The notes under the pieces are model-generated. The model worked only from the letters and a program-made list of their open reading frames with translations. It searched no databases and was not told the origin of the DNA. From NCBI GenBank assembly GCA_946620235.1, contig CAMONC010000001.1, forward strand, positions 414-64,413: a DNA stretch of 64,000 nt. The letters run 5' to 3'. Positions 4,433 to 42,100 of this stretch are shown here, one piece after another. Each line of letters starts with the position of its first letter. Positions within the stretch are counted from its first letter, which is position 1. Both the position numbers and the translations under genes were made by a program. Origin of the DNA: an uncultured Lachnospiraceae bacterium (GTDB taxonomy: Bacteria > Bacillota > Clostridia > Lachnospirales > Lachnospiraceae).

Positions 4433-5124
4433 TTTATGTAAACCTCCGAGTCATTTATTTTTTCCCTGCTGCCTGTAAGCTCATCGAGATCTATCCTGCG
4501 TCTGTGAGCGGCTTCCGCTGCCGACAGATCGTGTGTAGCCATGATGATCGTGATCTTTTGCCTGTGTATGATATCCAGAAGTCTCAGAATCTCCGCAGTC
4601 GATACGGGATCCAGATTACCGGTGGGCTCATCGACCAGCAGAAGCTTGGGATGATTGATCACCGCTCTCGCCAGGCACACCTTCTGCTGCTCTCCTCCTG
4701 ACATCTGGCGCGGATATCTCTTATGCAGATGGTCGATCCCGAGCATGGTGAGCACATGGGTGATCTTGGTCTCGGCATCCCTACCGCTGCCTCCGGTAGC
4801 AAGTATCGCCGCCGCGAGATTATCATACACGTTCACATCGGGGATGAGTCTGAAATCCTGAAACAGCACACCTATATCTCTGCGGTAGAATGGGATCCTC
4901 CTCCGGGGTATGTTGCGCAGGTTTACGCCGTCCACGATGATATCTCCCGATGTCGGCTCTATCTCCTTGAGCAGCATCTTGAGAAGTGTCGTCTTACCGC
5001 TGCCGCTCGCTCCGGTCAGTACGACGAACTCATCATCCGCTATCTCGGCGGAGAAGTCATCGTATACCACCGGTGCCCCGTCTTCATCCTCATATGAATG
5101 ACTGATATGGGAAAAGGTGATCAT
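4429..5124 (-). CDS. FtsE/LolD-like ABC ATPase with no adjacent permease
   Basis: Walker A GASGSGKT, RRDIGVLFQDFRL, signature MSGGEQQ, Walker B LLVDEPTGNLD, ATHD. Confidence 0.88.
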   Translation of the reverse strand: MITFSHISHSYEDEDGAPVVYDDFSAEIADDEFVVLTGASGSGKTTLLKMLLKEIEPTSGDIIVDGVNLRNIPRRRIPFYRRDIGVLFQDFRLIPDVNVYDNLAAAILATGGSGRDAETKITHVLTMLGIDHLHKRYPRQMSGGEQQKVCLARAVINHPKLLLVDEPTGNLDPVSTAEILRLLDIIHRQKITIIMATHDLSAAEAAHRRRIDLDELTGSREKINDSEVYIK

Positions 5125-5426
5125 TGGATTGCCAGTGCCTTATCAAGTCCCGTCACACGCAAGATGTCCTTCACGGGGTCGGTCACGTTGATCACGGTGA
5201 ATCGGCCGCCCTTGCTCGCCGCCGTCTTCTGCCCGATCATCAGACCTCTTAAGCCTGCGCTGGAGACGTACTGGACCCCTTCCATATTCAGGATCACATT
5301 GCCTGATTTCTGAAACCCCTTGAGTATGGCATTCTGGAATTCAGTGGCGGCTATGGCATCGATCTTGCCGCTCACATTGAGCTGGACCATGCCCTCTCCT
5401 TTTATTTCTTCTACGTTCATACTCAC
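5121..5426 (-). CDS. STAS-domain anti-sigma-factor antagonist (SpoIIAA/RsbV-like)
   Basis: SGKIDA...YVSSAGLR (phosphoacceptor Ser)...ILRVTGLD; 101 aa. Confidence 0.9.
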   Translation of the reverse strand: MSMNVEEIKGEGMVQLNVSGKIDAIAATEFQNAILKGFQKSGNVILNMEGVQYVSSAGLRGLMIGQKTAASKGGRFTVINVTDPVKDILRVTGLDKALAIQ

Positions 5427-18182: not shown

Positions 18183-19922
18183 TTATTTCTTCGAAAGTGA
18201 CTCAGCCATAAGGGCACGTCTGGTCGGCGGCCATGTGACCGGTGTCTGCTTCACATCCCCGTTGGGGGCGGGCTTGGCATAGGTTGGCTTCGGGTTCTCT
18301 TTATTGGCTTTGATATCCCACGGTGTCTTCGCAGGCTGCAAGCCGTCTCCGTTGGTGGCAGGCTTGGCGTAAGACGGCTTCGGGTTATCTTTATTGGACT
18401 TGATATCCCACGGTTCCCTGGCAGGCTGTCTGCCGTCTCCGTTTACGGCAGGCTTGGCATAAGACGGCTTCGGGTTCTCTTTATTGGCTTTGATATCCCA
18501 CGGTGTCTTTGCGGGTTGCAGGCCGTCTCCGTTCTCTGCGGGCTTGGCATAGGTCGGTTTGGGATCTTTTTTATTTGCTCTTATATCCCAGGGCTTCATC
18601 ACCGTCGGAGGTGTATCCCCGTTAAAGGCCGGTATGGCATTCTCGGGTTTGGGGTCAGTCTTGTTGGCTTTGATATCCCATCTGGGTTTGGCCGTGCCGT
18701 CCGACATCTCCCAGCCGCCTTCCTTGGGCTTGGGTGTATAATGGTCATCACTAACCGCATTGGTGCTATCGGCATAAGTGGGTTTGGAGCCGTCATACTT
18801 CTCCTGCCTCTTCTTGGCGGTTATATCCGTGCTCTCCCAGCCTCCCTCTCCGGGTCCCGATGGCGTATAATGATCTGATGAAGTTTCATTACTCTGATTG
18901 GCATACTTGACCTTATCCCCGGCCTTGATTTCTTCGGCTCTGGGCTTGGCTGAAGAATCGGTCATCTTCCAGCTGCCGTCATCCTGCTTGGAGTAATGCT
19001 CCTTACTTGTCATGTTGTTGCCGTTGGCCCACTTGACTTCGGTTCCTTCTCCATACGCATCCAGTCTCTCTTTGACTTTGGAGTCTACACGTTTGAGTCC
19101 GTTTTCACCCGACGTATATGATTTGGCTGCCCAATCGATTGATTTCGGGTTGGCATATGTGGTCTTGTGCCCCTCAACACCTTTGATAGACCAGAAGGGT
19201 TTGTTGGTTGATGTGGCTCTTTTCTGTGGATCCGTTATGCCGCCATAGGCTGTATCCTTGCGTACCCGTATAGGATTCACAGCATAATCCACACTCTTCT
19301 GCTCGTAGTATTCACTATCCTTGCTCAGACCCAGCTTGCTGGCGTATTTATTCTCGAGATTACCTGTATTATCTTCTTTTTTGAATTTATAAGGCTCAAG
19401 CTCCTGTGATCCCTCAAAGGGATTGGTCACTACCATCAGCTCTCTGTAGGCTATGGTGGTAGTCTCAGTCAGGATCGCGCTCTTCTCGGAGTTCAATTCT
19501 CCGTATTCCTTGGCTGTAACCACACACCCGGTGAAGGTGTATATACGCGCGGGACTTGCAGGCGCGGCATCGATGATCTCGGATCTGGCTTTGTGTCTGT
19601 ATACATAGAGCATGACGGGCAGCATAAGCTCCGTTCCGTTGGCCAGAGGATCAAGGAATCTCTCCGTGCCCACGTATCTCTCGACCTGGAATGTAAAAGG
19701 CTTCGATATGGGCTTGCGTCTCATATGAACATAGTCATTTACACCACCCTCACGGATGTATTCGTATTCATTCTCTTTGTTGAATACCTTTACACTCTTG
19801 AGCGCCAGAAAATATACTCCTTCAACCTCGAGCACGAAGTTAAAGGACGTTATGGGATTGTTGACCGGGGCATTACGATCGGTTATGTCATCATTGCCCC
19901 ATGCACTCCAGCCACTGCTCAT
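18183..19922 (-). CDS. T4 gp19-like tube protein (Afp5-like) fused to a ~400-aa repeat-rich extension
   Basis: NPITSFNFVLEVEG...EYEYIREGGVNDYVH...YTFTGCVVT..YGELNSEKSAILTETTTIAYREL tube domain followed by tandem repeats. Confidence 0.82.
   Translation of the reverse strand: MSSGWSAWGNDDITDRNAPVNNPITSFNFVLEVEGVYFLALKSVKVFNKENEYEYIREGGVNDYVHMRRKPISKPFTFQVERYVGTERFLDPLANGTELMLPVMLYVYRHKARSEIIDAAPASPARIYTFTGCVVTAKEYGELNSEKSAILTETTTIAYRELMVVTNPFEGSQELEPYKFKKEDNTGNLENKYASKLGLSKDSEYYEQKSVDYAVNPIRVRKDTAYGGITDPQKRATSTNKPFWSIKGVEGHKTTYANPKSIDWAAKSYTSGENGLKRVDSKVKERLDAYGEGTEVKWANGNNMTSKEHYSKQDDGSWKMTDSSAKPRAEEIKAGDKVKYANQSNETSSDHYTPSGPGEGGWESTDITAKKRQEKYDGSKPTYADSTNAVSDDHYTPKPKEGGWEMSDGTAKPRWDIKANKTDPKPENAIPAFNGDTPPTVMKPWDIRANKKDPKPTYAKPAENGDGLQPAKTPWDIKANKENPKPSYAKPAVNGDGRQPAREPWDIKSNKDNPKPSYAKPATNGDGLQPAKTPWDIKANKENPKPTYAKPAPNGDVKQTPVTWPPTRRALMAESLSKK
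18235..18690 (-). repeat. Five tandem 90-bp (30-aa) repeats, consensus PWDIKANKENPKP[ST]YAKPAxNGDGxQPAxx
   Basis: The ttattggctttgatatccca-like motif recurs at 18301, 18391, 18481, 18571 and 18661 (exact 90-bp period). Confidence 0.95.
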
Positions 19923-24706: not shown

Positions 24707-27418
24707 TTATTCTCCCTTGACAAATTCGGTAAGTGCTTCCGTATATTCCTGAACCTTGGCCTGCATGGGGCCTGTCAGGCATATGGCGTAATCGGTACCG
24801 TAAGCATACTCCGCACTGCAACCGAAATACGTGCTGCCGTCATTCTCGCCTATCATGAGTGCACCCTGTGACACCACCGCAGTGTTCATCTGCTCGGGTT
24901 CCTCGTCGGTGCTGCTCCTGTACATCAGGTCGCTGCCACGCTTAAAGATATACACCTTCGATCCCGATGTGACTGTGGCGGTAGCCTTCGTTTCATCATA
25001 GAAATATCTGTACGAGGTCACAGCGGATATGACTCTTAAGTCAATGTATTCTATGGATTTATTATCACTGTACTGTCTGTATAAGTATTTATTGCCTCCG
25101 GATATCAGCCTGTTGACCAGCTTGGATGTAAGACTCTCCGCCGGTGCTATACCGGATCTGGCCAGTCTCGACATGACCGCCGAAGCTATGGCAAGCTCCC
25201 TGTCATTCATCTCATCGAGGCTCTTGCCGAAGAGGGCTTCAAGCTGCGCCAGAAGCTCATCCTCCGAGGCCGCACTGTCGGTACTTTTCGATGAATCTAT
25301 CGCATTCTGTATGCCACGCAGGGTAGCTGCGCTTGCCCCGCTCGCGGCTGCCTTATCCTTGAGCTTATCTAGTGCATCATCGGCCCCCGCTGCTGCGAGT
25401 GCATCGGCTATGCCGCTCAAATCCGCATTCGCATCATCCGCCAGTTTATTCATGGCCTTGTCCGTAAGGGAGTCAGCCATGGAGGCTCCTCCTCCGGCTC
25501 CTGCGATATCCTGATCCACTGCCGCTATCAATGCATCATATGCCTTGACACCGGCCAGATCATTATTATCAAGTGCTTCATCACGCTTTTTTAACAGCTC
25601 AGCCTTTCTGTCCTTCAGACGGTCGGCATCCGATTGGAGGCTCTTATCGGAATCAATGATCTTCTGGGCCTCTTCCTTGAGCCATACTATATGTGCTTCC
25701 ACGGATGATTTCGCATAAGGCTTGAAATCACTGTCCGGCAGAGAGTCATTGAGTTTCTCCGCCAGATCCAGCCGCTGGTATACATATGCCAGTGCATTTG
25801 CTGCCGTATCACGCTGTCTGACACCGTCTATGAGGAACTGAAGCATCGACCGGTCGGCTTCAAGCGAGGTCTTCTGATCATCGAGGAAGGCAGTGCGTGC
25901 ATTCTCACCGGTCAGCGTCGAATAGTCGGGATCGGGGCCTGACTGTGCATGCTGTGTATATGCCGAGTCGGCCTGAGGTATCAGGCTGCTCATGAGCATA
26001 TCAAGCTCGCCCGCTTTATCACTGACCTTATTATTCTTGATATTGATCACATGCTTCAGATATGTGACCGGTCCTCCGGTGCCGGATGCGGATGACGAAT
26101 CTATGACCTGGACCGAGTAGTCGTACTCGGAATGCCCGAGGATGTCCTTGGTATCCTCCAGGCTCTTGGACAGATGCTTGGTATAACTGTCGGAGCAGTT
26201 GGACATGCATTGACCGATAGCTTCGGTCAGTGCCGAATCCGCGGCAAATGCATTCTCCTTCGGAGTTTCATCATATACATAATCCTCATTTTCGGAATTG
26301 GCTTCCTCATGACGCTTCTTGTCATTCTCCACGCTTTCCTCGAGTATGGTCCACCATCCGTCAGAGTTACCCTTGATGCCCATCCAGCTGAACCAGGCCG
26401 ACAGCCACGGAGCCTTAATTGCCAGGCTGGATGCGGAGAAATCATGTTTGGTGGCATCCTCGAGCTCGTTGATATAGTCAGGATTGGTCGCATTGTTGGG
26501 ATCATTGGATGAATCCTTGAAATTACCGTATGGCGTATAATTGGATCCTGTGGCCAGAGTATTGAGTGTATTGAGCAGGTTCGGATCCATCACCACGAGT
26601 CTGTCCATGACAAGCATACGGCGCTTGGCATCCACCTTTTCCATCAGGCCGTATACGATGGCTGCCTCTTCATCGGCACCCTGTGCCTTGAGGTTGATAT
26701 AGCAGCTGTTAAGCTTCTGCAGATCCTCGTCACACTTATTGGTCTCTGCATCCCGGATATCAAGTGCGAAGAACGTGCTCAGCAGCCGGAAATAATATAC
26801 GTCAGTCCTTAAGTTGCCCGTCTGTTCGGAATTCCTGTTCTTGATGAAGTCGTCACGGGATATATCCTGTGCCTCCTCCGAATATGTATACTGCATCCAC
26901 AGAGGCTGTAGCTCCGGAAGCTTGGACAGATCGTAAGGATCGGGGATGTCAAACGTATTGACCGGAGTCATGGTCTTGGCATCACGCAGGATACCGTCGG
27001 ATCCGGCATAGTATGATACATACAGAGGATCGAGCACCGCTTCATCCACGGGTACACCGTCTTTCGAAATGCCTGCCAGTCCGTTATCCACGTTGTCTGT
27101 TTCATACCACTGCCCGTTGGTGAATTCCGATTTATAGTAGATATTGTTCTGCCCGCTTTCTGTAGCGGAAGCAGCGGCCTTTTCCTGCAAAGGGCCGGTA
27201 AGTGCCTTGATATGGATGATATATGTACCGATGAAGAGCACGGAATTATCCACAGTGGTCTTGCTCTTGAACTCCGAATACGTGACTGCCGTGCTTGTAT
27301 CGAAGATCGCATCGGCTATTATGTCTCTGCTCATGAATACAGCCACACCGGATCCTGCGATCAATACCGCCATCAGGAAGCTCAGTATTCTTTTGTATGT
27401 CTTGGATAGTTTCTTCAA
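24707..27418 (-). CDS. Large exported/membrane-anchored protein with coiled coil and C-terminal copper-amine-oxidase-N (stalk)-like domain
   Basis: N-terminal basic + hydrophobic segment; helical middle; C-terminal YIDLRVIS..TSYRYFYDE....TVTSGSKVYIFKRG. Confidence 0.6.
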   Translation of the reverse strand: MKKLSKTYKRILSFLMAVLIAGSGVAVFMSRDIIADAIFDTSTAVTYSEFKSKTTVDNSVLFIGTYIIHIKALTGPLQEKAAASATESGQNNIYYKSEFTNGQWYETDNVDNGLAGISKDGVPVDEAVLDPLYVSYYAGSDGILRDAKTMTPVNTFDIPDPYDLSKLPELQPLWMQYTYSEEAQDISRDDFIKNRNSEQTGNLRTDVYYFRLLSTFFALDIRDAETNKCDEDLQKLNSCYINLKAQGADEEAAIVYGLMEKVDAKRRMLVMDRLVVMDPNLLNTLNTLATGSNYTPYGNFKDSSNDPNNATNPDYINELEDATKHDFSASSLAIKAPWLSAWFSWMGIKGNSDGWWTILEESVENDKKRHEEANSENEDYVYDETPKENAFAADSALTEAIGQCMSNCSDSYTKHLSKSLEDTKDILGHSEYDYSVQVIDSSSASGTGGPVTYLKHVINIKNNKVSDKAGELDMLMSSLIPQADSAYTQHAQSGPDPDYSTLTGENARTAFLDDQKTSLEADRSMLQFLIDGVRQRDTAANALAYVYQRLDLAEKLNDSLPDSDFKPYAKSSVEAHIVWLKEEAQKIIDSDKSLQSDADRLKDRKAELLKKRDEALDNNDLAGVKAYDALIAAVDQDIAGAGGGASMADSLTDKAMNKLADDANADLSGIADALAAAGADDALDKLKDKAAASGASAATLRGIQNAIDSSKSTDSAASEDELLAQLEALFGKSLDEMNDRELAIASAVMSRLARSGIAPAESLTSKLVNRLISGGNKYLYRQYSDNKSIEYIDLRVISAVTSYRYFYDETKATATVTSGSKVYIFKRGSDLMYRSSTDEEPEQMNTAVVSQGALMIGENDGSTYFGCSAEYAYGTDYAICLTGPMQAKVQEYTEALTEFVKGE

Positions 27419-27443
27419 TGCTTTTCTCTCTCGTTCGTCAAAC

Positions 27444-29513
27444 TTACTCCGGAAGTTTCTTTATAAGCCCGTTCAGCGCATCAAATCTGCCTGTGTAGAG
27501 CACACCGCCGGCTTCATCATACAACTCTATCTTCAGATCATCCATTGACTGCTGGAGCAGTGGCAGATAAGTAAATGTTTTATCGATCTCAACCTTTGTA
27601 TCTCCGCCCACATAAGTGCCGTCCTTGTACAGGATACAGAAGCTCTTCACCTCTTTATCTTCGGGCGTGATCTGAAGCTGTATCAGATTGGTGTCATCGA
27701 GCTCTATCGTAAATGTACCGAGGACATCTCCCTCGTTCTTCTTGATATCGTAGCCTGATGTGATGCTCAAGGGACCTGACTCCTCACTCGGATCTATGAT
27801 ACAATCGTCCACAAACTCATCCCCGTTATACAGTCTGATCTTGACCTCATCCAGCTTCTCCAGATCCAGACCCAGATGTCTTAAGGGCTTGTCCTTGGCG
27901 GTACGCTCCCCTACCATTGTATTATTGATCCAGAGCTCATAATCGGTAATATCCACAGCGAAATCATCCGGTATAGTTATGTTAACCTCGAATGCCATAT
28001 CCTGGATGATCCGTTCGATGGAATAGAATGCGCCGTCGGCTTTGTTCTTCTCAACATAACTGGTACCCACTACCGCTGTCTGCATATCCGCATCCGTGCC
28101 TGAGAGTATAGCGCTGATACCGCCGCAGGTCAGTCTGTCAAAAGAGTACAGTGTCTGGGAGTAAAGCTTCATTGCATCCAGGAGACCGTTCTGGAGTTCC
28201 TCGTAGCTTTCCAGCTGGGAATCATACTCCTCGAAGGTCAACTGTCCCAGGCGGTTTTTGAGCTCGGCTGCGGCCAGCTCCTCTTTTGCCTTGTCCAGAT
28301 CACTGATGCTCTGCTTATATGAGTTCTTCACCGATATATAGTTGTTAAAGGTATCCGTGACAGTCTGGTCGAGTGTCTCCTTCGCGGCGTCCTTTTCCTT
28401 GGCGGCTGCCGCATAATCGAGAACATTCTGGAACAGCACATACGGATCATCATCTATATAGCGGGTACCGTCCATGTTGCCCTTGAACCAGAGCCTCGGG
28501 ATCTTCACGAAGAGGAATATCCTGATCTTCCCCTTCCAGTAGCTGTCTATCTTGGTCAGGAAATCCTTGTAATCCTTTTTGAAGGACTTCTTGTTGATGC
28601 TGTTGCCGTTCAGTGCTGCGCTCACATATGACGCGATCATATTGGCGTCCCTGCCGTATTTGTTCTTGACCAGCCCCCAGTTCGTATTAAGTTCGGCTCT
28701 CGCTGTGGTCTCCGCTATGCATGCCTCATAATAGGTCTCGTCACGGTCCTCGGTATACTGTATCAGAGCGTCGAGCTGGTCTCTGGATACCTCGGATTCC
28801 AGATACGGCTTCTCAAATGTGTACTGAGTGGTCACATCTATGCCTATCATCTTGGTCAGCTTCTGCAGATCCGCCTCCAGAGTACGTCTGTCCGATGTGA
28901 TCTTGTCATTGGTGCTGTCCAGTTTCTTCTGTATCTTATCCACGTCAGCCTGCGTGGCCTGACCGGTACGGAGTCTCGCCTGGTTTCTGGCCAGACCGTC
29001 CTTAAGGCTCTCGGCTCTGCGCTCGTTAAATTCAATGGTCTCCTGCAATACCACGATCTCAACGTAGAGATTGTTGACAGTCTCGCTGATCTCATAGGTC
29101 TTATCCTGCAGGTTGTGCTGGGCGACCTTGATATCATACTGTATCGCCACGGGCTTGAACTGGAACTCCGACGCCTCCGCCATATTGGGGCTCGTGGGAA
29201 ACTGGAAGTTAAGCAGCGGTGACCATCTGAACTGGCTCATGGATTCCTGCTTCAGCTTGATGGCTTTGACCGCACTCTCATATTCAGCCTGTTTGGATGC
29301 AATGGCGTCCTCTGCGTTCTCATACTCAAGTGAGTTCTGTATGGCCAGCAGGCGGCAGGCCTTGAGTGTGATCTTCTGTTCTGCGGCTGCTTCGGCTTCG
29401 ATGGAACCGGTGCAGGCGATGTCAATGACATCCCCGACGGGCGTACATATAAGTATCGCGCATGCCAGAAGTATGGCCGTTATTCTGTTTAGGATGCCGG
29501 TCAGCTGCTTCAT
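27444..29513 (-). CDS. TolC/outer-membrane-efflux-like helical protein with beta-rich C-terminal domains
   Basis: Signal peptide; ITLKACRLLAIQNS; two OEP-like repeats (VNNLYVEI...ARLRTGQATQADV and VTDTFNNY...LKNRLGQLTFEEY). Confidence 0.7.
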   Translation of the reverse strand: MKQLTGILNRITAILLACAILICTPVGDVIDIACTGSIEAEAAAEQKITLKACRLLAIQNSLEYENAEDAIASKQAEYESAVKAIKLKQESMSQFRWSPLLNFQFPTSPNMAEASEFQFKPVAIQYDIKVAQHNLQDKTYEISETVNNLYVEIVVLQETIEFNERRAESLKDGLARNQARLRTGQATQADVDKIQKKLDSTNDKITSDRRTLEADLQKLTKMIGIDVTTQYTFEKPYLESEVSRDQLDALIQYTEDRDETYYEACIAETTARAELNTNWGLVKNKYGRDANMIASYVSAALNGNSINKKSFKKDYKDFLTKIDSYWKGKIRIFLFVKIPRLWFKGNMDGTRYIDDDPYVLFQNVLDYAAAAKEKDAAKETLDQTVTDTFNNYISVKNSYKQSISDLDKAKEELAAAELKNRLGQLTFEEYDSQLESYEELQNGLLDAMKLYSQTLYSFDRLTCGGISAILSGTDADMQTAVVGTSYVEKNKADGAFYSIERIIQDMAFEVNITIPDDFAVDITDYELWINNTMVGERTAKDKPLRHLGLDLEKLDEVKIRLYNGDEFVDDCIIDPSEESGPLSITSGYDIKKNEGDVLGTFTIELDDTNLIQLQITPEDKEVKSFCILYKDGTYVGGDTKVEIDKTFTYLPLLQQSMDDLKIELYDEAGGVLYTGRFDALNGLIKKLPE

Positions 29514-29516
29514 ATA

Positions 29517-30752
29517 CTACGCTGTCTCCTCTTCGTCCTGCGAGACATAATAGAACTCGAAGTATCCCGCCCTGTTCGGGCACACGAATGAATACAACAC
29601 ATCTCCTCTGCGGAATGTATATATATAGACCTCATAATCTCTGTCATAAGCTTCCACCGTCGATACATCGGAGAAGCTGTCCGTAGTGACCAGATCGGCC
29701 ACTCCGTCAAATGCGTTCCTGCCGGAATTGATGATGTCTATGGCTATTGCCTCGGGCAGAACGATATCACTGAAGCCCTCGTAAACGGGCGATCCCAGTA
29801 CATCCTCTATATTGGGGATGGTATCCACGACTTCTCCGCCGTAGGTGAAGTAATCGTGGAGGACATAAACCTCCGTGACCTTCTCTTCGTCATCGAGAGC
29901 CTCGGCGTCCCTGACTCCGTGATAGAGTGCGTCGATACCGGTCATGTACACGACCGACTCATCATCGGTCATGTAGAGATCTCTGGCTCCCTTGTAGCAG
30001 TCGGCAACTTCGGATGCGGTCTTGCCCAGCATCTCACTGTAGACGATATTATCGCTTGAAAATGATCCGATGTAGAGTTCATTCTCGCCGGAATCATACA
30101 GGATGCCCGCCCCGTTCTTCATGCCGCGGGCGAAGCTTCCCTCATACTCCTTGGTACCGTTCTCACGATAGAGAGTACCGTTGCCCTCGAACCGGTTATC
30201 ATGGAACGTGCCCTGGTACATCATATTCCCGGCGGGATAGTTCAATGTGCCCTGACCCTCGTATTTATTCTGGTCAAAGGTACCGGTATATACGACATTG
30301 CCGGCCGGATTGTACAGAGTACCCTCTCCGGTCACATATCCTTCCTCTACATTACCGTCGAATGCCCGGTATCCCGACTTGCCCAGGATCCTCACATGGC
30401 CCTTGGCGGTCCTGAGTCTCAATGAATTGTAGTCGTATGTCTTGACCCCGTCCTCATCGAAATGCTTAAAAAGCGATGTCTCGGTACTGATGTACCAGAT
30501 GCTCACGACGCCTATGATGAGTACCAGCGCATAGACCAGGCGTCTGGATATCATCCATCGTCCTACAGTGAAGTAGTCTTCATTGTTGCGGGGCTTAAAG
30601 CCCAGCAGATTGGAGAAGAACTCCCTGATCTTGACTACGACACGCGTCTTGATGAAGCTCCAGCTGGTGTACATGCGGAACTTCGTCACGAATCCGGTCA
30701 TCTTGGACTTGACGGTCTGTATGAGAATATTTAACAGGTTGTTACCGCCCAC
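29517..30752 (-). CDS. Membrane-anchored MORN-repeat protein
   Basis: One TM helix; about five YxGxFxxxxxxGxGxLY repeats. Confidence 0.85.
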   Translation of the reverse strand: MGGNNLLNILIQTVKSKMTGFVTKFRMYTSWSFIKTRVVVKIREFFSNLLGFKPRNNEDYFTVGRWMISRRLVYALVLIIGVVSIWYISTETSLFKHFDEDGVKTYDYNSLRLRTAKGHVRILGKSGYRAFDGNVEEGYVTGEGTLYNPAGNVVYTGTFDQNKYEGQGTLNYPAGNMMYQGTFHDNRFEGNGTLYRENGTKEYEGSFARGMKNGAGILYDSGENELYIGSFSSDNIVYSEMLGKTASEVADCYKGARDLYMTDDESVVYMTGIDALYHGVRDAEALDDEEKVTEVYVLHDYFTYGGEVVDTIPNIEDVLGSPVYEGFSDIVLPEAIAIDIINSGRNAFDGVADLVTTDSFSDVSTVEAYDRDYEVYIYTFRRGDVLYSFVCPNRAGYFEFYYVSQDEEETA

Positions 30753-30768
30753 TTACCGTTTCCTCCGG

Positions 30769-33186
30769 TCATACATGGAGATTTCTGAAGGTTTCTTCGT
30801 CCACGCTCTCGTTCAGGTATCTGTCGCTCTCGAATACATACCATTTCACCAGATCATCATCCGGTGTCTCCTTGAGGATATCCGAGAATAAAGTACGGGA
30901 TATATAGAAGTCTTTCTCATAGAAAGAACCGAGTGCCTCATTGAACTTGTCTGTCACAGCCAGTCTGGCCGCTCTGACTCTGGCGGGATATGCGTCAAGC
31001 ACCTCGTACAGCTTGATACCGCCGTATCTGCTGCCGCATCCTATGTATCCTATGAATCTCAGGGCGCCCGTAACGCTTTCACGCTCCTTGATATCCTCGC
31101 TGATCACCAGCCCCAGATGAAGCCCGGTCACGATGCGGTGGGCTGCCGATATGAGCTTTTTGCGCTCCGCATCGGCATACGTGGTAGTCTCCTCTTCGGT
31201 TCCAGCCACGCCGAAAGAACATTTGTCATAGAACAGGGATGCCGACAGGCTTCCTCCGTTGCCATGATTATATGTGGCAAACACTTCAGTCAGGAATGAG
31301 GTAACGTTCTTCTCATAATCCTGCATGAACATCTGGATGACACTCATATCGGGAGCCTTGCCGACGAGCATGCAGCCGTGAGTCTTCTGGAATGCACCTA
31401 TGCTTCCTATGATCCTGTCATATCCGCGCACATCCCTGATCCCGCCCGGAGGCATATTGATGGTAGCCACGGTTCCCCTGAGTGAGATATGATCTCCGTT
31501 TCTGACATCGATTATCGAGTCCTTCTGCAGGAATTTCTCGATATTCTTGGGGGCAAATCTGTAATAAGCCTCCAGGATACGAAGCTTGCTGTACTGAAGC
31601 TCCTCCACTCTCTTGCTTATCTCGGTCATGGAATCCCACATATCCTTAACGTCACGTCCCATCACCACGGGTCTGTCAGGCAGTTCCTTGCCGAGAGCCG
31701 TGTCGGACAGAGCCGACTCAAGTATCAGCATATCGCGCGAAAGCAGATACCATATGCCCAGGATCAGGATCGATCCGAATGCGAACGACAGGATAAAGAG
31801 TATGATCGCGCCTCTGTTGTCCACCCACACCCCGGCTGTATCCGAAGTGTCATTAATGATGCCCACGATAGCATAGTCGGGAACGGTATCATCATCTGCG
31901 ACAGCTATGGCACGGCTTCTCTGGTTATCTATCACCATATCCTCATATGTAAATCTGTTGCCCTTGAAGAGTGATGTGCTGATCCCGTCCACCGCGTTAC
32001 CGAATATCGAAGTGAGGCTCTGGAGATTGCGTCCGCTGGCGCTGGCCACTGTCACCGAGTCATGAAGCCTCACGATGAGTACATCATAGAAAATATCCGA
32101 GTTGCCCTCACGCCTGACAAAATCCGTCAATGCATGTCTGATGGACTGATACTGCTCCGAATCATAGAATCCCTGCGAACTGTAATCCACATAATCGGTG
32201 ATGCCCGCTTCGTCCGCAAGGCTCAGCATCGATATGACGGCGAACCGTGAATGTTCGGATTTGCGTGCCTCCGAGGTCCTGGCTGTCACGGTATATACTC
32301 CCACCCCGACGATCACCAGGAGCACCGCCTCGGCGATAGCCACGAAGTAGAACATACGGTTACGGTTGATGAACATTCTGACAAGCAGGAAAAGGATCAC
32401 AAACCAGATCAGGAGTATGGCGATATATGCAAGTATGTAATTACCGTAAAGAGAGAATATCTGTCCGGGTGACAGTCTCATGTGGTTCACGGCATACGCT
32501 ACGTTTTCATCCGGTCTGAAATATCCGAAAGGCGCATCCGCATCGGTTCTGGCGAGCATCTCGCCGTTGCCGTATCTGGCCTGAGAGAAGAATCTCCCCT
32601 CGGGAGCCACCTTCTTACGAAGACTCTCGACAATGACCTGTGATCCTGTCAGGGAATCCGGTTCCTTAAGCTCGCTGTTATTGATGCCGTATACGCTCGC
32701 ATACGACCCGTCCCCGGCCAGTGTGGTCAGATACAGCCCACCGGACTCGGCGGAGAATCCGCTTATGATCTCATCGCCCAGCAGAAACGTCTCAGTCTCG
32801 GAGAGGAGCCTAAGCTTGTGATCCATGAATATGATGCGGTAGAAAACGGATGAATCCGTGCCGTCATCGGCATCGGCCTGTTGGATCGTGGATAATACGG
32901 CGTACACGCCCTCATTATTCACGTCTATGAGCTCGACCCTCTCCTCGTCAGCTTCCCGTGACGAGAACATCGCTCTCACGTCTCCGTCCGCATCCATACG
33001 GAATATGCGCCCGCATCCGGCCACGTTGGCGGCGAGGAATATCTTGTCCCCGCTGTATGCACCCTGAGTGTACGCGGTATACTCAACGGTGGCACTTCTG
33101 CCGTTCATAAATGACGCAAAAACGAATATCGACACGGTAAAACTGATGATGTATAAGATTATGATGATCCTGTTACGTAATTTCAT
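30769..33186 (-). CDS. Multi-pass membrane protein with degenerate class III nucleotide-cyclase domain
   Basis: Four TM helices, two extracytoplasmic domains; AYYRFAPK..EKFLQKDSIIDV..GD, LVISE, RFIG, LYEVLD and FNEAL..FY..DF..SRTLF..IL...PDD.LVKWY cyclase-flanking motifs; catalytic residues not conserved. Confidence 0.72.
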   Translation of the reverse strand: MKLRNRIIIILYIISFTVSIFVFASFMNGRSATVEYTAYTQGAYSGDKIFLAANVAGCGRIFRMDADGDVRAMFSSREADEERVELIDVNNEGVYAVLSTIQQADADDGTDSSVFYRIIFMDHKLRLLSETETFLLGDEIISGFSAESGGLYLTTLAGDGSYASVYGINNSELKEPDSLTGSQVIVESLRKKVAPEGRFFSQARYGNGEMLARTDADAPFGYFRPDENVAYAVNHMRLSPGQIFSLYGNYILAYIAILLIWFVILFLLVRMFINRNRMFYFVAIAEAVLLVIVGVGVYTVTARTSEARKSEHSRFAVISMLSLADEAGITDYVDYSSQGFYDSEQYQSIRHALTDFVRREGNSDIFYDVLIVRLHDSVTVASASGRNLQSLTSIFGNAVDGISTSLFKGNRFTYEDMVIDNQRSRAIAVADDDTVPDYAIVGIINDTSDTAGVWVDNRGAIILFILSFAFGSILILGIWYLLSRDMLILESALSDTALGKELPDRPVVMGRDVKDMWDSMTEISKRVEELQYSKLRILEAYYRFAPKNIEKFLQKDSIIDVRNGDHISLRGTVATINMPPGGIRDVRGYDRIIGSIGAFQKTHGCMLVGKAPDMSVIQMFMQDYEKNVTSFLTEVFATYNHGNGGSLSASLFYDKCSFGVAGTEEETTTYADAERKKLISAAHRIVTGLHLGLVISEDIKERESVTGALRFIGYIGCGSRYGGIKLYEVLDAYPARVRAARLAVTDKFNEALGSFYEKDFYISRTLFSDILKETPDDDLVKWYVFESDRYLNESVDEETFRNLHV

Positions 33187-33222
33187 CTGATCCTGTCTTT
33201 CATACGATTAAATCAACACCGT

Positions 33223-34068
33223 CTACTGGAGCAGGCTCTCTGTACCTATCTGTTTGAAAGTGTTAAACAGAAGTCTGAGCCAAGAATTGCCTCCAAGGAA
33301 TAACCTCGACAGCAATATACTGAGCGCCGCGATACCGAGTATCACACTGATCCAGAAAAGTATGCCGAGTATATTGTCCGTATTGCGGGTAAGCCATAAT
33401 CTGAAGCGTCTGTACGGTGTCAGCTTCTCCGTGCTGACCGCGGCGATGGTGACGTCCCTGTACAGATCGGTAAATCTGTCATAGCTTCCGTTCGAGGTTT
33501 TCTTTTCCAGCAGATAATAGCTTGTAGCCTTCTGACCGGCTTTGGGTTCGAGCATCTTAAGCAGGAGCTTCGCACACACACCCGTGCACTCGCTCTCACC
33601 TATCTCGGGATCGAGATCGGCCAGATCCATCTCATATCCGAAGTATACCGACCTGTCATTCGCCATCTGAAGCTGATCACCGGTAAGCAGCAGATACAGT
33701 ATCGGATAAGGCAGATTACAGGTGATACATGCAAGTATCGTGCTGATACACACCTCTTCGCACTGTGCGAGAGTCAGCGTTTCACCGTTATAGAACTCCG
33801 AAAGAGGCCTTTCACGGTGATACGGAAATACCAGGATCTCCTGATCGCCGTGTGCGAACTCCTCTATCAGCACCCCGTCTCCGGTGCGGTCTGACATATT
33901 AAACAGCTCGAGAATCTGGCGTACCCTCGTGTGATTGTGCACAACGATCACCGTGTACATAATGCTCCCGCCGGAGTTTAAGTCCTTGCATATATAGCAG
34001 TCACTGACCTCACCGACACTTTTGGTGCTCACGGTCAGAAGACGCATTTTGCCGGATTCATATATCAT
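33223..34068 (-). CDS. Kinase-like (pseudo-kinase) protein with C-terminal TM helix
   Basis: N-lobe-like beta start (SDCYICKD...YTVIVV), LVFPY hinge-like segment, no HRD/DFG; TM helix near the C-terminus. Confidence 0.45.
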   Translation of the reverse strand: MIYESGKMRLLTVSTKSVGEVSDCYICKDLNSGGSIMYTVIVVHNHTRVRQILELFNMSDRTGDGVLIEEFAHGDQEILVFPYHRERPLSEFYNGETLTLAQCEEVCISTILACITCNLPYPILYLLLTGDQLQMANDRSVYFGYEMDLADLDPEIGESECTGVCAKLLLKMLEPKAGQKATSYYLLEKKTSNGSYDRFTDLYRDVTIAAVSTEKLTPYRRFRLWLTRNTDNILGILFWISVILGIAALSILLSRLFLGGNSWLRLLFNTFKQIGTESLLQ

Positions 34069-34080: not shown

Positions 34081-35934
34081 TTACAGATCGAGTTTCGGTA
34101 TATCAACCATGGGCTCCGGCTTCTGCTCGGGTGTTCCGCCCGGATCCGACTCCTTGGCATCGTTCTTGACTATCGCGTATGCATAGGTGCATACCATGGG
34201 CATATCGGAGCAATATATCCTGATCTCGTATACACCCTCCTTGGCCGGTGCGGTATATACTCCGTCAGTGGACACTTCACCGCTGCCGGATGCTGTCAGC
34301 TCATAGGTGATGCTGACGGGATCCATATTGTTGAACTGTACACCGAAGTAATAATTCTCACGAGGTCTCATGACAACAGTGGGGGTCTTGGCCGTGATGG
34401 TCTTGCCGTAATAATCCGCAGTATCGAGGTCGTCACCCGAAGGGAACCTGATGGCTACCCATCTGTATGTCAGCACAAGGAAATCAACGTCATGCAAAAG
34501 CTTGGCTGCCACTACGAAGCTGCCCTTGTCATTGAGCACCCTGACCGCGGTCTCCGCATCAACCAGCTGCTGTGACTGTCTGGAGAAAAGCTCGGGATTA
34601 CCGTATACGGTACTCTTGGCATTGGCCCCGAGTGCCTGATCGGCGGAGAGGTACTCATATCCTATCGATACATATACATTGCCGCTGCCGAGCCCGTGCG
34701 TGATCTCTCCGGAATAGCGTATATCTCCGGCTCTGGCGTCCTTGCCCAAAGGGATCTCCAGCACGCCCGTAGCCACATTCTTAAGCTCAGAACCGGTGAT
34801 CGGAGCGGGGGCAGTATCCGATGAAGAATTCGCATCCGCTGTTTCGGGGACGGATATATCCGCTTCCTTGACGTAATACTCCATGTATTCGGTGCGGATC
34901 GAATTCTGTGCAGGCAGATCGATATAAGCATCGGTTGCGGGATCAATCACATCCTCGATCACATAAGCGCTGTCGGTGCGCATCAGTTTGATATCGGCCA
35001 GGCGGATCGAATCCGTACCCATACCCTGTCTCATCTCGAGGTTGAGTCTGCCGAGCTCGCGTCCGACAAGTGCTGAGGGAGAATCCTCCGAAAGTCTGAC
35101 TCTTATGGCTATGCTGCTCTCGGCACCTATAGCCTTATCATCCTCAAATGCCGTCGCGGATCCGCTCCTCAGGATCACATTGGATTCTATACCGGGCTGG
35201 CTCATGGTCTTCACCCAGTAATCCCTGTACATCACACCGCCCTCCGGCAGTTCTATATCATCCACGCAGATCTCTATCTGCTGTGTACCGTCCGGTGCCG
35301 TAAATGCCGGTATATCCAGGATTCCCTTGAACGAAAGCTTCACGTCCGCATCGGTCTTTTTGTGTATCTCAAGCCTGATCTTTACATTGCGGTCCTTGCA
35401 TACGGTCGTTGGCATCACAATAAATCCGGTAAAGTTCGCTCCCGAGAACACCTGCTCCTTCGTCAGGAACTCAGACTCCAGCTCCAGTCCTTCCTCATAA
35501 TCCTCGCGATCGCAGAGGAATAACTCGAAGCCCTCACTGATACGGTTGAATTCATAATCCTGGTCCGTATCCTTGTGGCTCACGGCATATACGGAATGTA
35601 TCTCATTCTCCTTGTATCTCACGCAGAGACTTGCCAGATCGGTATGAAGAGAATCAAATCCCGATATCGTGGACAGCTTCTTGACGATGGATGAGTCAAT
35701 GATGATCTCACGCCCGGTACCGTCAATGACCACACCGCTTTCAACCAGTATCGACAGATCGTCCAGATTAAACACGCCGCACCCGCATACGATACCCGAT
35801 CCGTACATGAGGCTGTTCATAAACCTGAGCTTGTCGATGTGGTAGTTCTGCTCCGCCTGGAAATCAGCCGTAGTAAGCATCTTACCCGGATAATAGCGGT
35901 TCCTTTCAAACGGATATAACTGACTGTTTGGCAT
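34081..35934 (-). CDS. CIS baseplate-attachment/fibre-like protein with C-terminal Ig-like domain
   Basis: N-terminal FERNRYYPGKMLTTADFQAEQNYH...GSGIVCG...VESGVVIDGTGREII, typical of CIS fibre anchor domains; C-terminal GEVSTDGVYTAP. Confidence 0.72.
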   Translation of the reverse strand: MPNSQLYPFERNRYYPGKMLTTADFQAEQNYHIDKLRFMNSLMYGSGIVCGCGVFNLDDLSILVESGVVIDGTGREIIIDSSIVKKLSTISGFDSLHTDLASLCVRYKENEIHSVYAVSHKDTDQDYEFNRISEGFELFLCDREDYEEGLELESEFLTKEQVFSGANFTGFIVMPTTVCKDRNVKIRLEIHKKTDADVKLSFKGILDIPAFTAPDGTQQIEICVDDIELPEGGVMYRDYWVKTMSQPGIESNVILRSGSATAFEDDKAIGAESSIAIRVRLSEDSPSALVGRELGRLNLEMRQGMGTDSIRLADIKLMRTDSAYVIEDVIDPATDAYIDLPAQNSIRTEYMEYYVKEADISVPETADANSSSDTAPAPITGSELKNVATGVLEIPLGKDARAGDIRYSGEITHGLGSGNVYVSIGYEYLSADQALGANAKSTVYGNPELFSRQSQQLVDAETAVRVLNDKGSFVVAAKLLHDVDFLVLTYRWVAIRFPSGDDLDTADYYGKTITAKTPTVVMRPRENYYFGVQFNNMDPVSITYELTASGSGEVSTDGVYTAPAKEGVYEIRIYCSDMPMVCTYAYAIVKNDAKESDPGGTPEQKPEPMVDIPKLDL

Positions 35935-39170: not shown

Positions 39171-42100
39171 TCATTCGGTTTTAAATGCATCATTATATGC
39201 TTTCGTAGAAGCAGTCATTTCATCGGGTGCATCTCCGACATTGTTCTTGTCCTTCTCATCCAGGTTCATATTTTTATCAGCTGAATACCCCGCACCTTCC
39301 ACGCTTCTGGCTGACACGATGACATCTCTGGCCACACTGTCATCCGCACCCATGAATTTGAGGAGGTGTAACAATGCCTCCACTGTCAGCTGCTTACCTG
39401 ACAGGAAACCGGCTATGTCATTAAGCATCCTGACTGCCGCAGCCTTTTGCGCAGCAAGCTTCTTCCCTTCTTTAGTCTTGGCAGTCTTTTTATCTATCTG
39501 AAGACTTGCCAGATCCTGCAGCGCGGAATATTTCTCATCAAAAGTATTGATCATCCTTGCCACCATTTCCGCATCCATATGTGACAGGTCAACGATCCGG
39601 CCTTCCACTGCATCTCCGACAGTACTCCTGTGGGTATGGAATGCGGTCTGCTCCTCGGTTGACTGTGCGCCGCCGATCTCAATGAGCGCACTTCCGCCGG
39701 TAGTCTCGTTACCCACGGTGATCTTCTGTGACAGCTGCCCGTATGCCCCGCTGTCATCTATCGCGGTGCCGCCGGTCTGCTTGCCCAGTCCGCCAAGTGC
39801 CAGATTGAAGCCGTTCTTTTTCTGATAACCTTTTGCCCTGGATCTGAGTGCTGACGAAATCGCACTCTGGGCAGCCTTGGTACCGGCAGGCAGCGAGATC
39901 TTGATCTGTCCGCCATGAGCAAATGCCTCCGATATGTTTTCATCGAAATGCCCGGCCTTGGTCTTCTTATCCTCACCGGTATCATGTCTGTCAAAACGCC
40001 CGAGTTGCATGATGAACATCATCTTGGCAAGCTGTCGCTGCTCCACCTTATGGCTTCCAAGCATTTTATCCGCTTTCTTCTCTGCCTCCTCCGGTGCCAT
40101 GCTTTTGCGAAGCTGCCGTTCCAGACTTTTTTTCTGATCGTCATAATCTGCGGACAGGGTCTGAACAATGAGCTGACGGTTCATGTATGCATCATATTCC
40201 CTGGCTGTCTTCCAGGCATCTCTTCCCTTGCCGTCTTTGGCCTTCCTTCGGATCATCATATTGATGGCTTCACGGAATGCCGGATCATGTGCCTTGACTG
40301 ACAGCTCGTCCTTCTTTTCCTTACTGAGCTTCTCAAGCGGCGGTAATTCTCCCTTGCCGCCGTTGTAGGTCTTGTCTTCGCTTAGGAATTTATCCAGTGC
40401 CTTGCGTGCGAAGTATTCCTTCATAACGGAGGGCAGATGCTTGAATTTGCTTGCATCCCCCTTCTTCGCCAGTTTTACGGCCGAATTGATATCCTCGAGA
40501 CGGCTTCCGGTCTTCTCCGAAAGTTTATGACCGAATACCGTGGTTTTCTTTAAATGCGCCTCGATCTGGGCCATGTCATCGCCGGTAAGGATCCAGGCAA
40601 ACGGCTGTTCAGCCTTCTCCTGATCCACGTAAGCAGCCTGGAATATATCCATCGGCAACGGGGTGGCTTTCTTATCGGCTGCTTTCATCTTTTTGGCCCT
40701 TATCTGCTCCTGGAAGGACAGAAGCTTCTTATTGAGCACCGGCATAGTCTGCTGAGTGGCCTGAGTCTTGAATATCGCTTTGAGCTGATCGGTATTCTGC
40801 TCCAATATCTCCTTTTCGAAAGCTTCTGACGACTGGATGATCTCAAAATCTTCCGCCTTGAGCTCCAGTTTGGGCTTCTTCTGCTCCTGTTTGGGCTTCT
40901 GCTGCTCAGGCTTCTTCTGCTCGGGCTTCTGCTGCTCAGGCTTCTTCTGCTCCTGTTCGGGCTTCTGCTGCTCGGGCTTCTTCTGCTTCAATATCTCCTT
41001 TTCGGAAGTTTTTGACGACTCGATGATCACAAAATCTTCCACCTCGAGCCCCTGTTTGGGCTTCTGCTGTCCCTGCTTGGGCTTCTTTGCCTGCTTGCCT
41101 TTATTCTTCTCTTTTTTCAGATCCTGTTGCCAAATTTGGGCCTGTTCTTCCCGTTTGTTCTTTGCTATCTGTGCGTACTCATTCTGCTGTGCCTCGATAG
41201 CCTGCTTCTCTTCCTCGGTCACTTCAGGCAGTCCAAGCTTCTTTCTGGTCTCTTCGATCTGCGCCTTGACCTCCTGAACATTCTTCGTATGATCGAGATT
41301 CTTGGGCACGTATACTTCATCATCAAGGTATTTTTCCAGCACATTGTCCGGTTCTCCCTTGTGCATGGCAAAAGTAACGCCCAGATTATGGATCATGTTA
41401 GTCGGTGAGGTTGCCTCTTTCTTCTCATATGCGTCCGTATATACAAGCTTGCCTTCTTCGTTATAGGTGACACCTGCCTCCTGCTTAAGCTTATCCTTTG
41501 TATCCTTATCAAGCTTCTGCAGGAATGCAAGTTCAAGCGATACACCCTTGTTTTTCCTGATACCGGCCTTCAGTATAGTGGAGAATTCTTCAGGTGATAG
41601 ATCCAGTTCCACCGTTGTTCCGTTATCCATTCCCGAATCACGGCACCTGAGCTTGCCATCCTTGAATCCGATGATAGTGCGATAATGCGGCGGGATGAGC
41701 ATGGACATGGGGCCGCTTCCGCCCTGCATCAGTCCGCTCACTTTATTAAATATAAGATATGACAGTTTGACCCACTGAGCATCGGTGAATTTTTTGTAAT
41801 CAAAGTGGCCGTCATTTTCGGGTATATTGAACCGCAAATGCCTGACAGCCGTATCTGACATCTGTGCGAGCATCGTATCCGCGGATGTCATTACATTCCC
41901 CATCGCTCCGGCAGGCTTGACGTAACTCTTGATATCATTCAGTTCGCTCTCCATTCCGGCGTCTCCGCTCTGATCAAGCTTCTCTCTACGCAGATAATCC
42001 TCCGAGTACGGATTGACGACGATATTGGAGGGATTTAAGAATGTCATCTGATCTATTTGCGGCATATTCTCCGGTTTGAGCACATTCTTCAGATACCAGT

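What the first reader, a model, noticed from the sequence alone, without database searches (positions are those of the whole stretch)
24707..34068. Five-gene candidate membrane/cell-wall complex at the head of the CIS operon
Seen: a pseudo-kinase with TM, a 4-TM pseudo-cyclase, a TM-MORN protein, a TolC-like exported protein and a 903-aa anchored coiled-coil/stalk-domain protein sit between the fibre-anchor gene and the Pvc16-like gene with gaps of 3-36 bp. None is a canonical Afp/PVC component. Inference: they form a docking platform and wall-spanning conduit for the baseplate.
Basis: partly seen in the sequence, partly recalled or inferred. Interest (0 to 1): 0.82.

Follow-up and report, generated by a model that had tools for sequence, protein, structure and literature searches.

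The report
Membrane dock for Gram-positive injection machine
Five membrane and cell-wall genes sit inside a phage-tail-like injection-system operon of rumen and gut Clostridia, and their close relatives were found only at such loci; they likely dock the machine to the cell's own membrane so that it would fire outward through the wall, a mode not described for these bacteria in the papers searched.

Summary
Five co-oriented genes (A pseudokinase-TM, B 4-TM pseudo-cyclase, C TM-MORN, D TolC-like, E stalk protein) lie between a Cis13-like baseplate gene and Pvc16, with gaps of 3-36 bp. They keep this order in 79 of 79 related loci examined (cut by contig ends; 2 lack B). In a 201-genome family sample every strong homologue of A, B, D and E lay in a CIS-bearing genome. 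The block is layered, not one fixed five-part unit. A and C are the core. A comes and goes with the terminal Ig domain of Cis13 (about one evolutionary event), and Cis13(385-595)+A(1-222) got weak complex support (0.53 vs best control 0.00). D+E form an optional exported pair (fused in one locus; missing in 8 of 19 genomes, where C is usually longer). B is predicted to be a dead receptor cyclase, more likely a trigger than a strut. Docking is likely; a literal tube conduit is doubtful, since a TolC trimer lumen (20-26 A) is far narrower than a CIS tube. No description was found in nine paper searches. Verdict: new envelope-anchoring module of a clostridial CIS, probably T6SS-like; interest 0.8.

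The parts
34081..35934 (-). 617-aa Cis13/Cis19-like peripheral baseplate protein, first gene of the operon; N-terminal baseplate-binding domain (about 8-147), middle domains, terminal Ig-like domain (about 508-592) proposed to bind protein A
   Evidence: NF053767 E 1.2e-25, below cut-off; weak profile match to Anabaena All3314/Cis19, E 0.03-0.05; Ig domain co-occurs with A; complex job
33223..34068 (-). Protein A, 281 aa: cytoplasmic kinase-like domain without catalytic residues (1-~215), one TM (233-251), short conserved outer tail; proposed membrane dock
   Evidence: profile hits to Ser/Thr kinases E 5e-4 to 1e-2; HRD Asp column is L/V/I/A in 91 of 100 rows; one homologue adds an outer LysM
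30769..33186 (-). Protein B, 805 aa: TM - outer beta-propeller fragment - 2 TM - outer dCache - TM - HAMP/coiled coil - class III cyclase fold without metal-binding Asp - TPR; proposed sensor or trigger
   Evidence: AlphaFold2 mean pLDDT 84.8; Foldseek E 3e-9 to adenylyl cyclase; VIA Z 14-15.7 cyclases, 10.8 dCache, about 11 propeller; column counts, distant homologues read; ESM Atlas HAMP/Guanylate_cyc neighbours
29517..30752 (-). Protein C, 411 aa: basic amphipathic cytoplasmic N-terminus, one TM (67-85), outer MORN repeats and C-terminal domain; core member; proposed strut
   Evidence: Pfam MORN; hydropathy; present in all three CIS clades seen; longer where D is absent
27444..29513 (-). 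Protein D, 689 aa: signal peptide, two TolC/OEP helical repeats with short conserved hydrophobic hairpins (about 94-106 and 326-345), C-terminal beta-rich region
   Evidence: Pfam OEP E 6.9e-7; TIGR01844 E 1.9e-8; two stretches match TolC, E 4e-4; column counts; only OEP hit in its own genome; no structure predicted
24707..27418 (-). Protein E, 903 aa: likely cleaved signal peptide, novel N-terminal domain, helical bundles and coiled coil, variable-length helical repeats, C-terminal copper-amine-oxidase N1 'stalk' domain; partner of D
   Evidence: AlphaFold2 mean pLDDT 85; VIA Z 9.9, rmsd 1.9, 73 aligned to 1d6u; PF07833 in 16 of 46 members; repeat expansions and D-E fusion in L223
77..24703 (-). 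Rest of the CIS operon: Pvc16, 269-aa gene, PAAR-like DUF4280, sheath, tubes, CIS tube proteins, spike, gp25, two baseplate J, tail I, then STAS, FtsE-like ATPase, HATPase, SH3 membrane protein, Afp15-like ATPase
   Evidence: Pfam and NCBIfam scans, PHROGs

Best explanation
These genes sit in the CIS operon and likely encode an envelope-anchoring module that docks an eCIS-type injection machine on the inner face of the cell's own membrane, so that it would fire outward in a T6SS-like way. Steps: (1) shown: the genes are operonic with the CIS and travel with it; (2) predicted, weakly: the terminal part of the Cis13-like baseplate protein binds the cytoplasmic pseudokinase domain of bitopic protein A, as TssK links the T6SS baseplate to TssL and as the pseudokinase YukC scaffolds the T7SSb; (3) inferred: bitopic C joins A in the membrane and its MORN sheet projects into the wall as a strut; (4) inferred: exported D and E form a pair (fused in one locus), D's helical barrel resting its hydrophobic hairpin tips on a membrane or surface layer and E's variable-length stalk tying it to the wall, making a collar of struts around the firing site rather than a pipe for the tube; loci without D/E use a longer C; (5) inferred: B, a catalytically dead dCache-HAMP-cyclase receptor, passes an outside cue to assembly or firing.
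For: Order Cis13-A-B-C-D-E, or a contig-cut part of it, in 79 of 79 GTDB loci (63 complete, 2 without B); these are the best 79 of 226 relatives found. In 201 family genomes: D in 11 and E in the same 11, all with the sheath; strong A hits in 19, of which 18 have the sheath and the 19th lies beside Cis13, C and PAAR on a 6-kb contig; B cyclase-region hits in 15, all with the sheath. Order survives rearrangement of the operon (G040, G695). Cis13 with terminal Ig has A adjacent in 127 of 127 loci, Cis13 without it has no A in 20 of 20. Complex job Cis13(385-595)+A(1-222): weak support, median 0.53 (0.45, 0.53, 0.61), best of 3 controls 0.00, runs agree in at least 89% of contacts, partner pLDDT at least 86; the mark was reached by 116 of 157 solved and 2 of 215 mismatched pairs, at 0.60 or under by 18 of 157 and both mismatches. 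D followed by E in 94 of 96 loci; L223 fuses D, E's N-domain (E 4e-7) and a stalk domain. One A homologue carries an outer LysM. No holin or endolysin among the window's 39 ORFs or 74 of 142 unassigned flanking ORFs scanned. Precedent: Cis13-type proteins contact the membrane in Anabaena tCIS and are postulated to do so in the haloarchaeal T6SS (PMC8894136, PMC11566945; passages).
Against: No contact is measured. The Ig/A correlation collapses to one nested clade plus the outgroup on a quick tree, so it is about one event. The complex pass is in the weak band where passes are more often wrong than right unless likely beforehand. A-C, C-D and D-E contacts and D's fold and oligomer were not modelled. 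D/E are dispensable in many loci and A in one clade, so neither is needed by every CIS of this group. Docking does not show firing direction: Streptomyces CisA recruits its CIS to the membrane to kill its own cell (PMC12237407 passages). No peptidoglycan hydrolase was found in the window to open the wall (only an SH3-domain match to an amidase family). Lack of lysis genes in a locus does not exclude lysis genes elsewhere.
Confidence: 0.5

Rival explanations
1. Literal conduit: D assembles as a wide, higher-order ring (for example a hexamer matching the C6 baseplate) through which spike and tube pass, with A, B, C as its membrane base.
For: D has both TolC repeats but much shorter hairpins than the dozen-residue strands of outer membrane factors, so its oligomer need not be a trimer; a TolC alpha-barrel is about 100 A long, close to the 11-19 nm walls reported for two Lachnospiraceae (PMC10117717 section 19).
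Against: TolC-family lumen is 20-26 A against about 80 A for a CIS tube (recalled); D/E not found in 8 of 19 A-bearing genomes, so a tube conduit would be optional.
Confidence: 0.12
2. CisA-like mode: the module recruits cytoplasmic particles to the membrane under stress and firing kills or lyses the producer cell; D/E and B sense or report envelope state.
For: Same docking evidence as the best explanation; Streptomyces precedent with a bitopic adaptor; no holin found, so self-puncture could replace it.
Against: A self-killing device needs no exported wall-side proteins of variable length; large variable genes and an RHS/Hint insertion beside or inside these loci look like cargo for other cells.
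Confidence: 0.13
3. Signalling module only: A, B and C sense an outside cue and control expression or assembly of a released eCIS, without stable docking.
For: B has receptor architecture and A is kinase-derived; SpoIIE, STAS, response-regulator and HD genes crowd these loci.
Against: Both enzymes lack catalytic residues; A tracks a domain of a structural baseplate protein; D and E have no signalling domains.
Confidence: 0.13
4. D/E (with C) are a separate export channel or surface-display unit, for example a TolC duct working with the operon's FtsE-like ATPase or with adaptors encoded elsewhere, or a tether for released particles.
For: Monoderm TolC-like proteins occur in efflux operons and are proposed to sit in the S-layer (PMC8809574 passages); an FtsE-like ATPase lies in the operon; adaptor (MFP) genes exist on three other contigs of the genome.
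Against: No adaptor or permease gene in the window's operon; D has a 200-residue C-terminal extension and is tied to E, not to an adaptor; never seen away from a CIS in the samples.
Confidence: 0.1

Closest known systems
Streptomyces coelicolor CIS with membrane protein CisA (PMC12237407; abstract start and passages seen)
   Same: eCIS-type particle in a Gram-positive bacterium, two baseplate J/Cis11 genes or copies, a bitopic membrane protein predicted to bind a baseplate subunit
   Different: CisA is one protein with an unstructured cytoplasmic part and is predicted to bind Cis11; firing kills the producer. Here 2-5 proteins, a folded pseudokinase predicted to bind Cis13, and exported wall-side proteins
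Haloarchaeal T6SS of Halogeometricum borinquense (PMC11566945; passages seen)
   Same: eCIS-type cluster used membrane-bound in a single-membrane cell; Cis12/Cis13 postulated as feet; a membrane gene tracks one clade; nearest Cis11 relatives are in Bacillota
   Different: One 6-TM anchor candidate, no complex seen outside the membrane, no peptidoglycan to cross
Anabaena thylakoid-anchored CIS (PMC8894136; passages seen)
   Same: Cis13/Cis19-type peripheral trimers; weak profile match of the 617-aa protein to Cis19
   Different: Cis13 carries its own TM helix there; the 617-aa protein has none and would need A
T7SSb pseudokinase EssB/YukC (PMC9600267; abstract and outline seen)
   Same: Bitopic membrane pseudokinase of Firmicutes used as an interaction hub of a secretion machine
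   Different: No YukC Pfam match in 51 A members; A is much shorter, with one kinase-like domain and almost no outer domain
Monoderm TolC-like proteins (PMC8809574; passages seen)
   Same: OEP repeats, signal peptide, single-membrane hosts, reduced barrel
   Different: Those lie in efflux operons with adaptor and transporter and have a hydrophilic modelled barrel; D has hydrophobic hairpin tips, a C-terminal extension and partner E, inside a CIS operon
Canonical T6SS TssK-TssJLM (recalled; one reference title seen)
   Same: Functional logic: fibre-derived baseplate protein binds a bitopic membrane protein of a trans-envelope complex
   Different: No Tss membrane-complex family matched; the machine is Afp/PVC-like

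Membership tests
eCIS (Afp/PVC-like) gene cluster | sheath, tube, spike/PAAR, gp25, baseplate J, Pvc16 cap, AAA ATPase in one locus | tested here: met
eCIS (Afp/PVC-like) gene cluster | release by cell lysis, usually with lysis genes | tested here: inconclusive
   no holin or endolysin in 39 window ORFs or 74 of 142 flanking ORFs of relatives; lysis itself not testable
Canonical T6SS i-iii | TssJ/L/M membrane complex, TssK, ClpV | tested here: not met
   no such family among 39 ORFs in Pfam or 24 in NCBIfam
T6SS mode of action (incl. subtype iv, archaeal) | extended particles bound perpendicular to the cytoplasmic membrane; contact-dependent delivery | not testable with these tools
   needs cryo-ET and competition assays
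Cis13/Cis19 family (617-aa protein) | N-terminal baseplate-binding domain | tested here: inconclusive
   NF053767 E 1.2e-25 over 8-147 but 90.6 bits against cut-off 370; All3314 E 0.03-0.05
TolC/outer membrane factor (D) | two OEP helical repeats and export signal | tested here: met
   A-x-A site conserved in 52 of 56 rows
TolC/outer membrane factor (D) | trimer with 12-stranded membrane-spanning barrel | tested here: inconclusive
   hairpins read from the alignment are about 5 residues a strand against a dozen in OprM; no model of D made
TolC/outer membrane factor (D) | adaptor and transporter genes in the same operon | tested here: not met
   none in the operon; adaptor genes on other contigs
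Class III nucleotide cyclase (B) | cyclase fold | tested here: met
Class III nucleotide cyclase (B) | two metal-binding Asp and transition-state Asn/Arg | tested here: not met
   first-Asp position (placed by eye at residue 577) is S/N/A/G in 43 of 56 rows, second site unconserved; distant homologues have N, G or Q there
Hanks-type Ser/Thr kinase (A) | kinase fold | tested here: inconclusive
   many kinase hits but best E 5e-4 to 1.5e-3; no fold search of A
Hanks-type Ser/Thr kinase (A) | Gly-rich loop, HRD, DFG | tested here: not met
   HRD aligns to Y-L-L; column counts
EssB/YukC | sequence family membership | tested here: not met
   no YukC Pfam hit in 51 members at E 0.05
Streptomyces CisA | homology to CisA | not tested
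   no direct comparison run; described architecture differs from all five proteins

The most novel reading that the evidence does not exclude
Clostridia have built a T6SS-like weapon of their own: an eCIS docked through a pseudokinase (A) and MORN strut (C) and carried across the peptidoglycan by a repurposed TolC-like barrel and stalk (D/E), gated by a dead receptor cyclase (B). It would be the first trans-envelope complex for a contractile injection system in a walled single-membrane bacterium, present in about a tenth of Lachnospiraceae genera sampled.
Probability: 0.4. Interest if true: 0.92.

Novelty: new variant of a known kind. Interest (0 to 1): 0.8.

Why it matters
Contact-dependent contractile injection is not established for walled Gram-positive bacteria (own knowledge; the papers read show membrane-recruited self-killing in Streptomyces and a wall-less archaeal T6SS). 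A dedicated, conserved envelope module in 19 of 201 sampled Lachnospiraceae genomes, and in other Bacillota families, would show how a phage-tail machine is docked and fired across peptidoglycan, give a role to monoderm TolC-like proteins and to two bacterial pseudo-enzymes, and point to a common antagonism system in rumen and gut communities. It is directly testable: cultured carriers exist, and Butyrivibrio sp. DSM 10294, which encodes a D homologue, is named among the strains of a published rumen cryo-ET survey.

Tried and rejected
Single-sequence Pfam/NCBIfam/PHROGs scans gave nothing for A, B, E. Profile searches of PDB sequences gave nothing useful for B or E. Foldseek of the E model had no match at E <= 0.001; VIA rows for its helical part (Z 7-9.6, incl. 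ESX EccD chains) are common helical arrangements and were not used, and residues 40-330 were barely tested. D had no match in plasmid records. Weak A-profile hits (4 more genomes plus one extra place; 2) cover only part of the kinase domain and were treated as ordinary kinases; I looked at one (L247, not a CIS locus). Seven genomes with weak B hits confined to the TM/HAMP part were dropped from the B count. Three sheath-only genomes had no Cis13 or large baseplate J hit (one search had no positive control). E search in five clade-2 genomes was empty without an internal positive, but one search had positives. RNA runs: contigs from 4 metatranscriptome runs (3 studies) cover pieces of the block and three gene junctions at high identity; contigs cannot show strand, level or a single transcript and no silent control was laid, so this is presence only. 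The Ig/A and C-length/D contrasts include duplicate loci and are confounded by clade, so no statistical test is given. The tree is the quick one (57 of 129 rows), unrooted, and was used only to count events. Three look-ups of earlier scan findings showed nothing. No structure of A, C or D was predicted and D's oligomer was not tested.
Full report
OBSERVATION. The five ORFs are present as described, on the minus strand, behind a 617-aa gene and ahead of Pvc16, with gaps of 12, 36, 16, 3, 25 and 3 bp. I call them A (281 aa), B (805), C (411), D (689) and E (903) in transcription order. Downstream lies a complete Afp/PVC-type cluster: Pvc16, PAAR-like DUF4280, sheath, tubes, spike, gp25, two baseplate J genes, tail I and an AAA ATPase. 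The 617-aa protein matches the CIS13 model over its N-terminus (E 1.2e-25, below the curated cut-off) and weakly the Anabaena crown protein All3314/Cis19; it has no TM segment. Close relatives are named Lachnospiraceae and Butyrivibrio, mostly from rumen.

WHAT EACH PROTEIN IS. A: profiles hit many Ser/Thr kinases, weakly (best E 5e-4 and 1.5e-3); the HRD position aligns to Y-L-L and the Asp column is L, V, I or A in 91 of 100 rows. One TM follows; one homologue adds a Pro-rich linker and LysM after it, which places the kinase-like part inside and the tail at the wall. B: the AlphaFold2 model (pLDDT 84.8) matches class III cyclases at 564-740 (Foldseek E 3e-9; VIA Z 14-15.7), dCache sensors at 288-470 (Z 10.8) and beta-propellers at 32-242 (Z about 11); the first metal-binding Asp position, placed by eye, is S, N, A or G in 43 of 56 rows and N, G or Q in distant homologues. 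C: basic amphipathic N-terminus, one TM, MORN repeats. D: two stretches align to the two TolC repeats, with a conserved A-x-A signal site and two short, strongly conserved hydrophobic hairpins; it is the only OEP hit of its genome. E: model pLDDT 85, mostly helical, ending in a copper-amine-oxidase N1 stalk domain (VIA Z 9.9, rmsd 1.9, 73 aligned; PF07833 in 16 of 46 members); Ala37 after the hydrophobic stretch is kept in 42 of 46 rows, so the N-terminus is more likely a cleaved signal than an anchor; homologues run from about 730 to 1780 aa, partly by repeat expansion.

DO THEY BELONG TO THE CIS? A D-profile scan of GTDB found 226 relatives; the best 79 loci were returned. All 79 show the order Cis13-A-B-C-D-E or a contig-cut part of it; 63 are complete, 2 lack B; the 5 without any CIS gene are whole contigs of 4.7-9.3 kb holding only module genes. 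As an unbiased check, one sample of 201 family genomes was searched with sheath, D, A, B and E. Sheath: 21; D: 11; E: the same 11; strong A: 19; B cyclase region: 15. All D, E and B genomes have the sheath; 18 of 19 A genomes do, and the last has A next to Cis13, C and PAAR on a short contig. The three sheath-only genomes showed no Cis13. In 401 phylum genomes the Cis13 profile hit 9; of the 7 non-self loci read, 1 had all five genes, 3 had A, B, C, 1 had B and C, and 2, with only N-terminal Cis13 homology, had none. In 399 class genomes D was found in 4 by single sequence.

THE BLOCK IS LAYERED. A second clade of clostridial CIS keeps Cis13-A-C adjacent, moves B behind PAAR and lacks D/E; a third lacks A. 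Across all fetched loci with a complete Cis13 and at least 1.2 kb downstream (147 of 161 rows, duplicates included), Cis13 with its terminal Ig-like domain has A adjacent in 127 of 127, Cis13 without it has no A in 20 of 20. A quick tree puts the Ig-less rows in one clade of 12 plus a 2-row outgroup: the correlation is about one event, a lead and not a statistic. It chose the pair for the one complex job: Cis13(385-595)+A(1-222) scored 0.53 (0.45, 0.53, 0.61) against 0.00 for the best of 3 controls, with at least 89% contact agreement and partner pLDDT at least 86; verdict weak support, the mark being reached by 116 of 157 solved and 2 of 215 mismatched pairs, and at 0.60 or under by 18 of 157 and both mismatches. 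D is followed by E in 94 of 96 loci, and L223 fuses a D-like barrel, E's N-terminal domain (E 4e-7 in an 8-sequence search) and a stalk domain in one chain. C has median 411 aa and 4 motif matches where D follows (94 rows) and 612 aa and 11 where it does not (51 rows); ranges overlap and clade confounds it.

MECHANISM. Best reading (0.5): A, with C, is the membrane dock for the baseplate through Cis13; D+E are an optional wall-side collar and tether; B is a dead receptor that gates assembly or firing; the machine fires outward from an intact cell. Docking alone I put near 0.7. Shown: operon membership, co-occurrence, domain anatomy, loss of catalytic residues. Predicted weakly: Cis13-A contact. 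Inferred: every other contact, the firing direction and B's role. The literal conduit is doubtful: TolC-family channels have a 20-26 A lumen (PMC8277102, passages), a CIS tube is about 80 A wide (recalled), and D is dispensable. It survives only if D forms a larger ring. Which surface D's hydrophobic tips touch is open; one Butyrivibrio fibrisolvens strain is reported with an outer-membrane-like layer (PMC10117717 section 19). No lysis gene was found in the window or in 74 of 142 flanking ORFs scanned, and no wall hydrolase either, which the model still lacks.

WHAT IS KNOWN. Membrane-bound eCIS-type machines are known from Anabaena (PMC8894136, passages), Streptomyces (PMC12237407, passages) and haloarchaea (PMC11566945, passages), each with a single anchor protein or built-in TM helix; a pseudokinase scaffolds the Firmicute T7SSb (PMC9600267, abstract and outline); monoderm TolC-like proteins are proposed to sit in S-layers in efflux systems (PMC8809574, passages). 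Nine full-text searches showed no listing that describes this module; I read passages of only the papers named here plus PMC12599244 (no relevant terms) and PMC8894135. One trace is in print: the supplement of PMC8213781 lists MORN as enriched in eCIS operons (odds ratio 14, 17 genes, Paenibacillus, Cohnella, Oscillibacter, Anaerotignum, Fusibacter) and files it as a eukaryotic domain; its main text does not mention MORN or TolC. Three of its 15 supplement files were not searched and two were cut, bioRxiv supplements were closed, and subscription papers are not in the library, so a prior description cannot be excluded.

VERDICT. Real, conserved, CIS-specific envelope module; docking likely, tube conduit unlikely as stated; new variant of membrane-anchored CIS, with a 0.4 chance of being the first trans-envelope CIS complex of a walled monoderm. 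Interest 0.8.

Noticed in passing
window 39171-45683, 47469-50972, 52747-60096 (minus): Three very large ORFs (2170, 1167, 2449 aa) without Pfam or PHROGs hits, interleaved with GNAT-like and small acidic genes upstream of the operon; likely CIS cargo. The 2170-aa protein shows a Cys..His..Asp spacing reminiscent of papain-like proteases (by eye only). A partial second set (Afp15-like ATPase, 1167-aa and 216-aa paralogues) lies on contig C65.
   Followed up: partly
window 2760-5426 (minus): STAS, FtsE-like ATPase without FtsX, HATPase-only membrane protein and TM-Pro-rich-SH3 protein at the tail of the operon, kept in several relatives (L012, L014, L135, L140); could recruit wall-remodelling enzymes.
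   Followed up: partly
L149 16179-17078; L203 from 11833; L233 from 11794: The A gene is cleanly inverted between Cis13 and B in three contigs, two of which group together on the tree.
   Followed up: partly
L204-L207, L210, L216, L218, L221, L223, L238, L239: In the clade lacking A, gene C is on the opposite strand and the tail-I gene is about twice as long (about 700 aa), perhaps an alternative anchor.
   Followed up: no
L108-L110 (G622): About 30 kb holding an RHS/Hint gene and many small ORFs is inserted between E and Pvc16.
   Followed up: partly
L018/L019, L096, L097, L132/L133: Tandem extra E genes, and D with a long C-terminal coiled-coil extension (1042-1243 aa) in L018, L096, L097.
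   Followed up: partly
window 18183-19922 (minus): Second tube-domain protein carries a long C-terminal extension with Pro/Lys-rich repeats; length varies from about 150 to 970 aa among relatives.
   Followed up: no
L141, L150, L155, L151: MFS-domain membrane proteins, ABC substrate-binding proteins and one SLH-domain protein recur beside clade-2/3 loci.
   Followed up: partly
L026 4606-5796: A plain 396-aa TolC-like gene sits directly ahead of a GerA spore germination operon.
   Followed up: no
L106/L107 (G486), L125 (G621), L112/L113 (G028): CIS-type sheath genes without baseplate or Cis13 found in the genome; orphan or decayed loci.
   Followed up: partly
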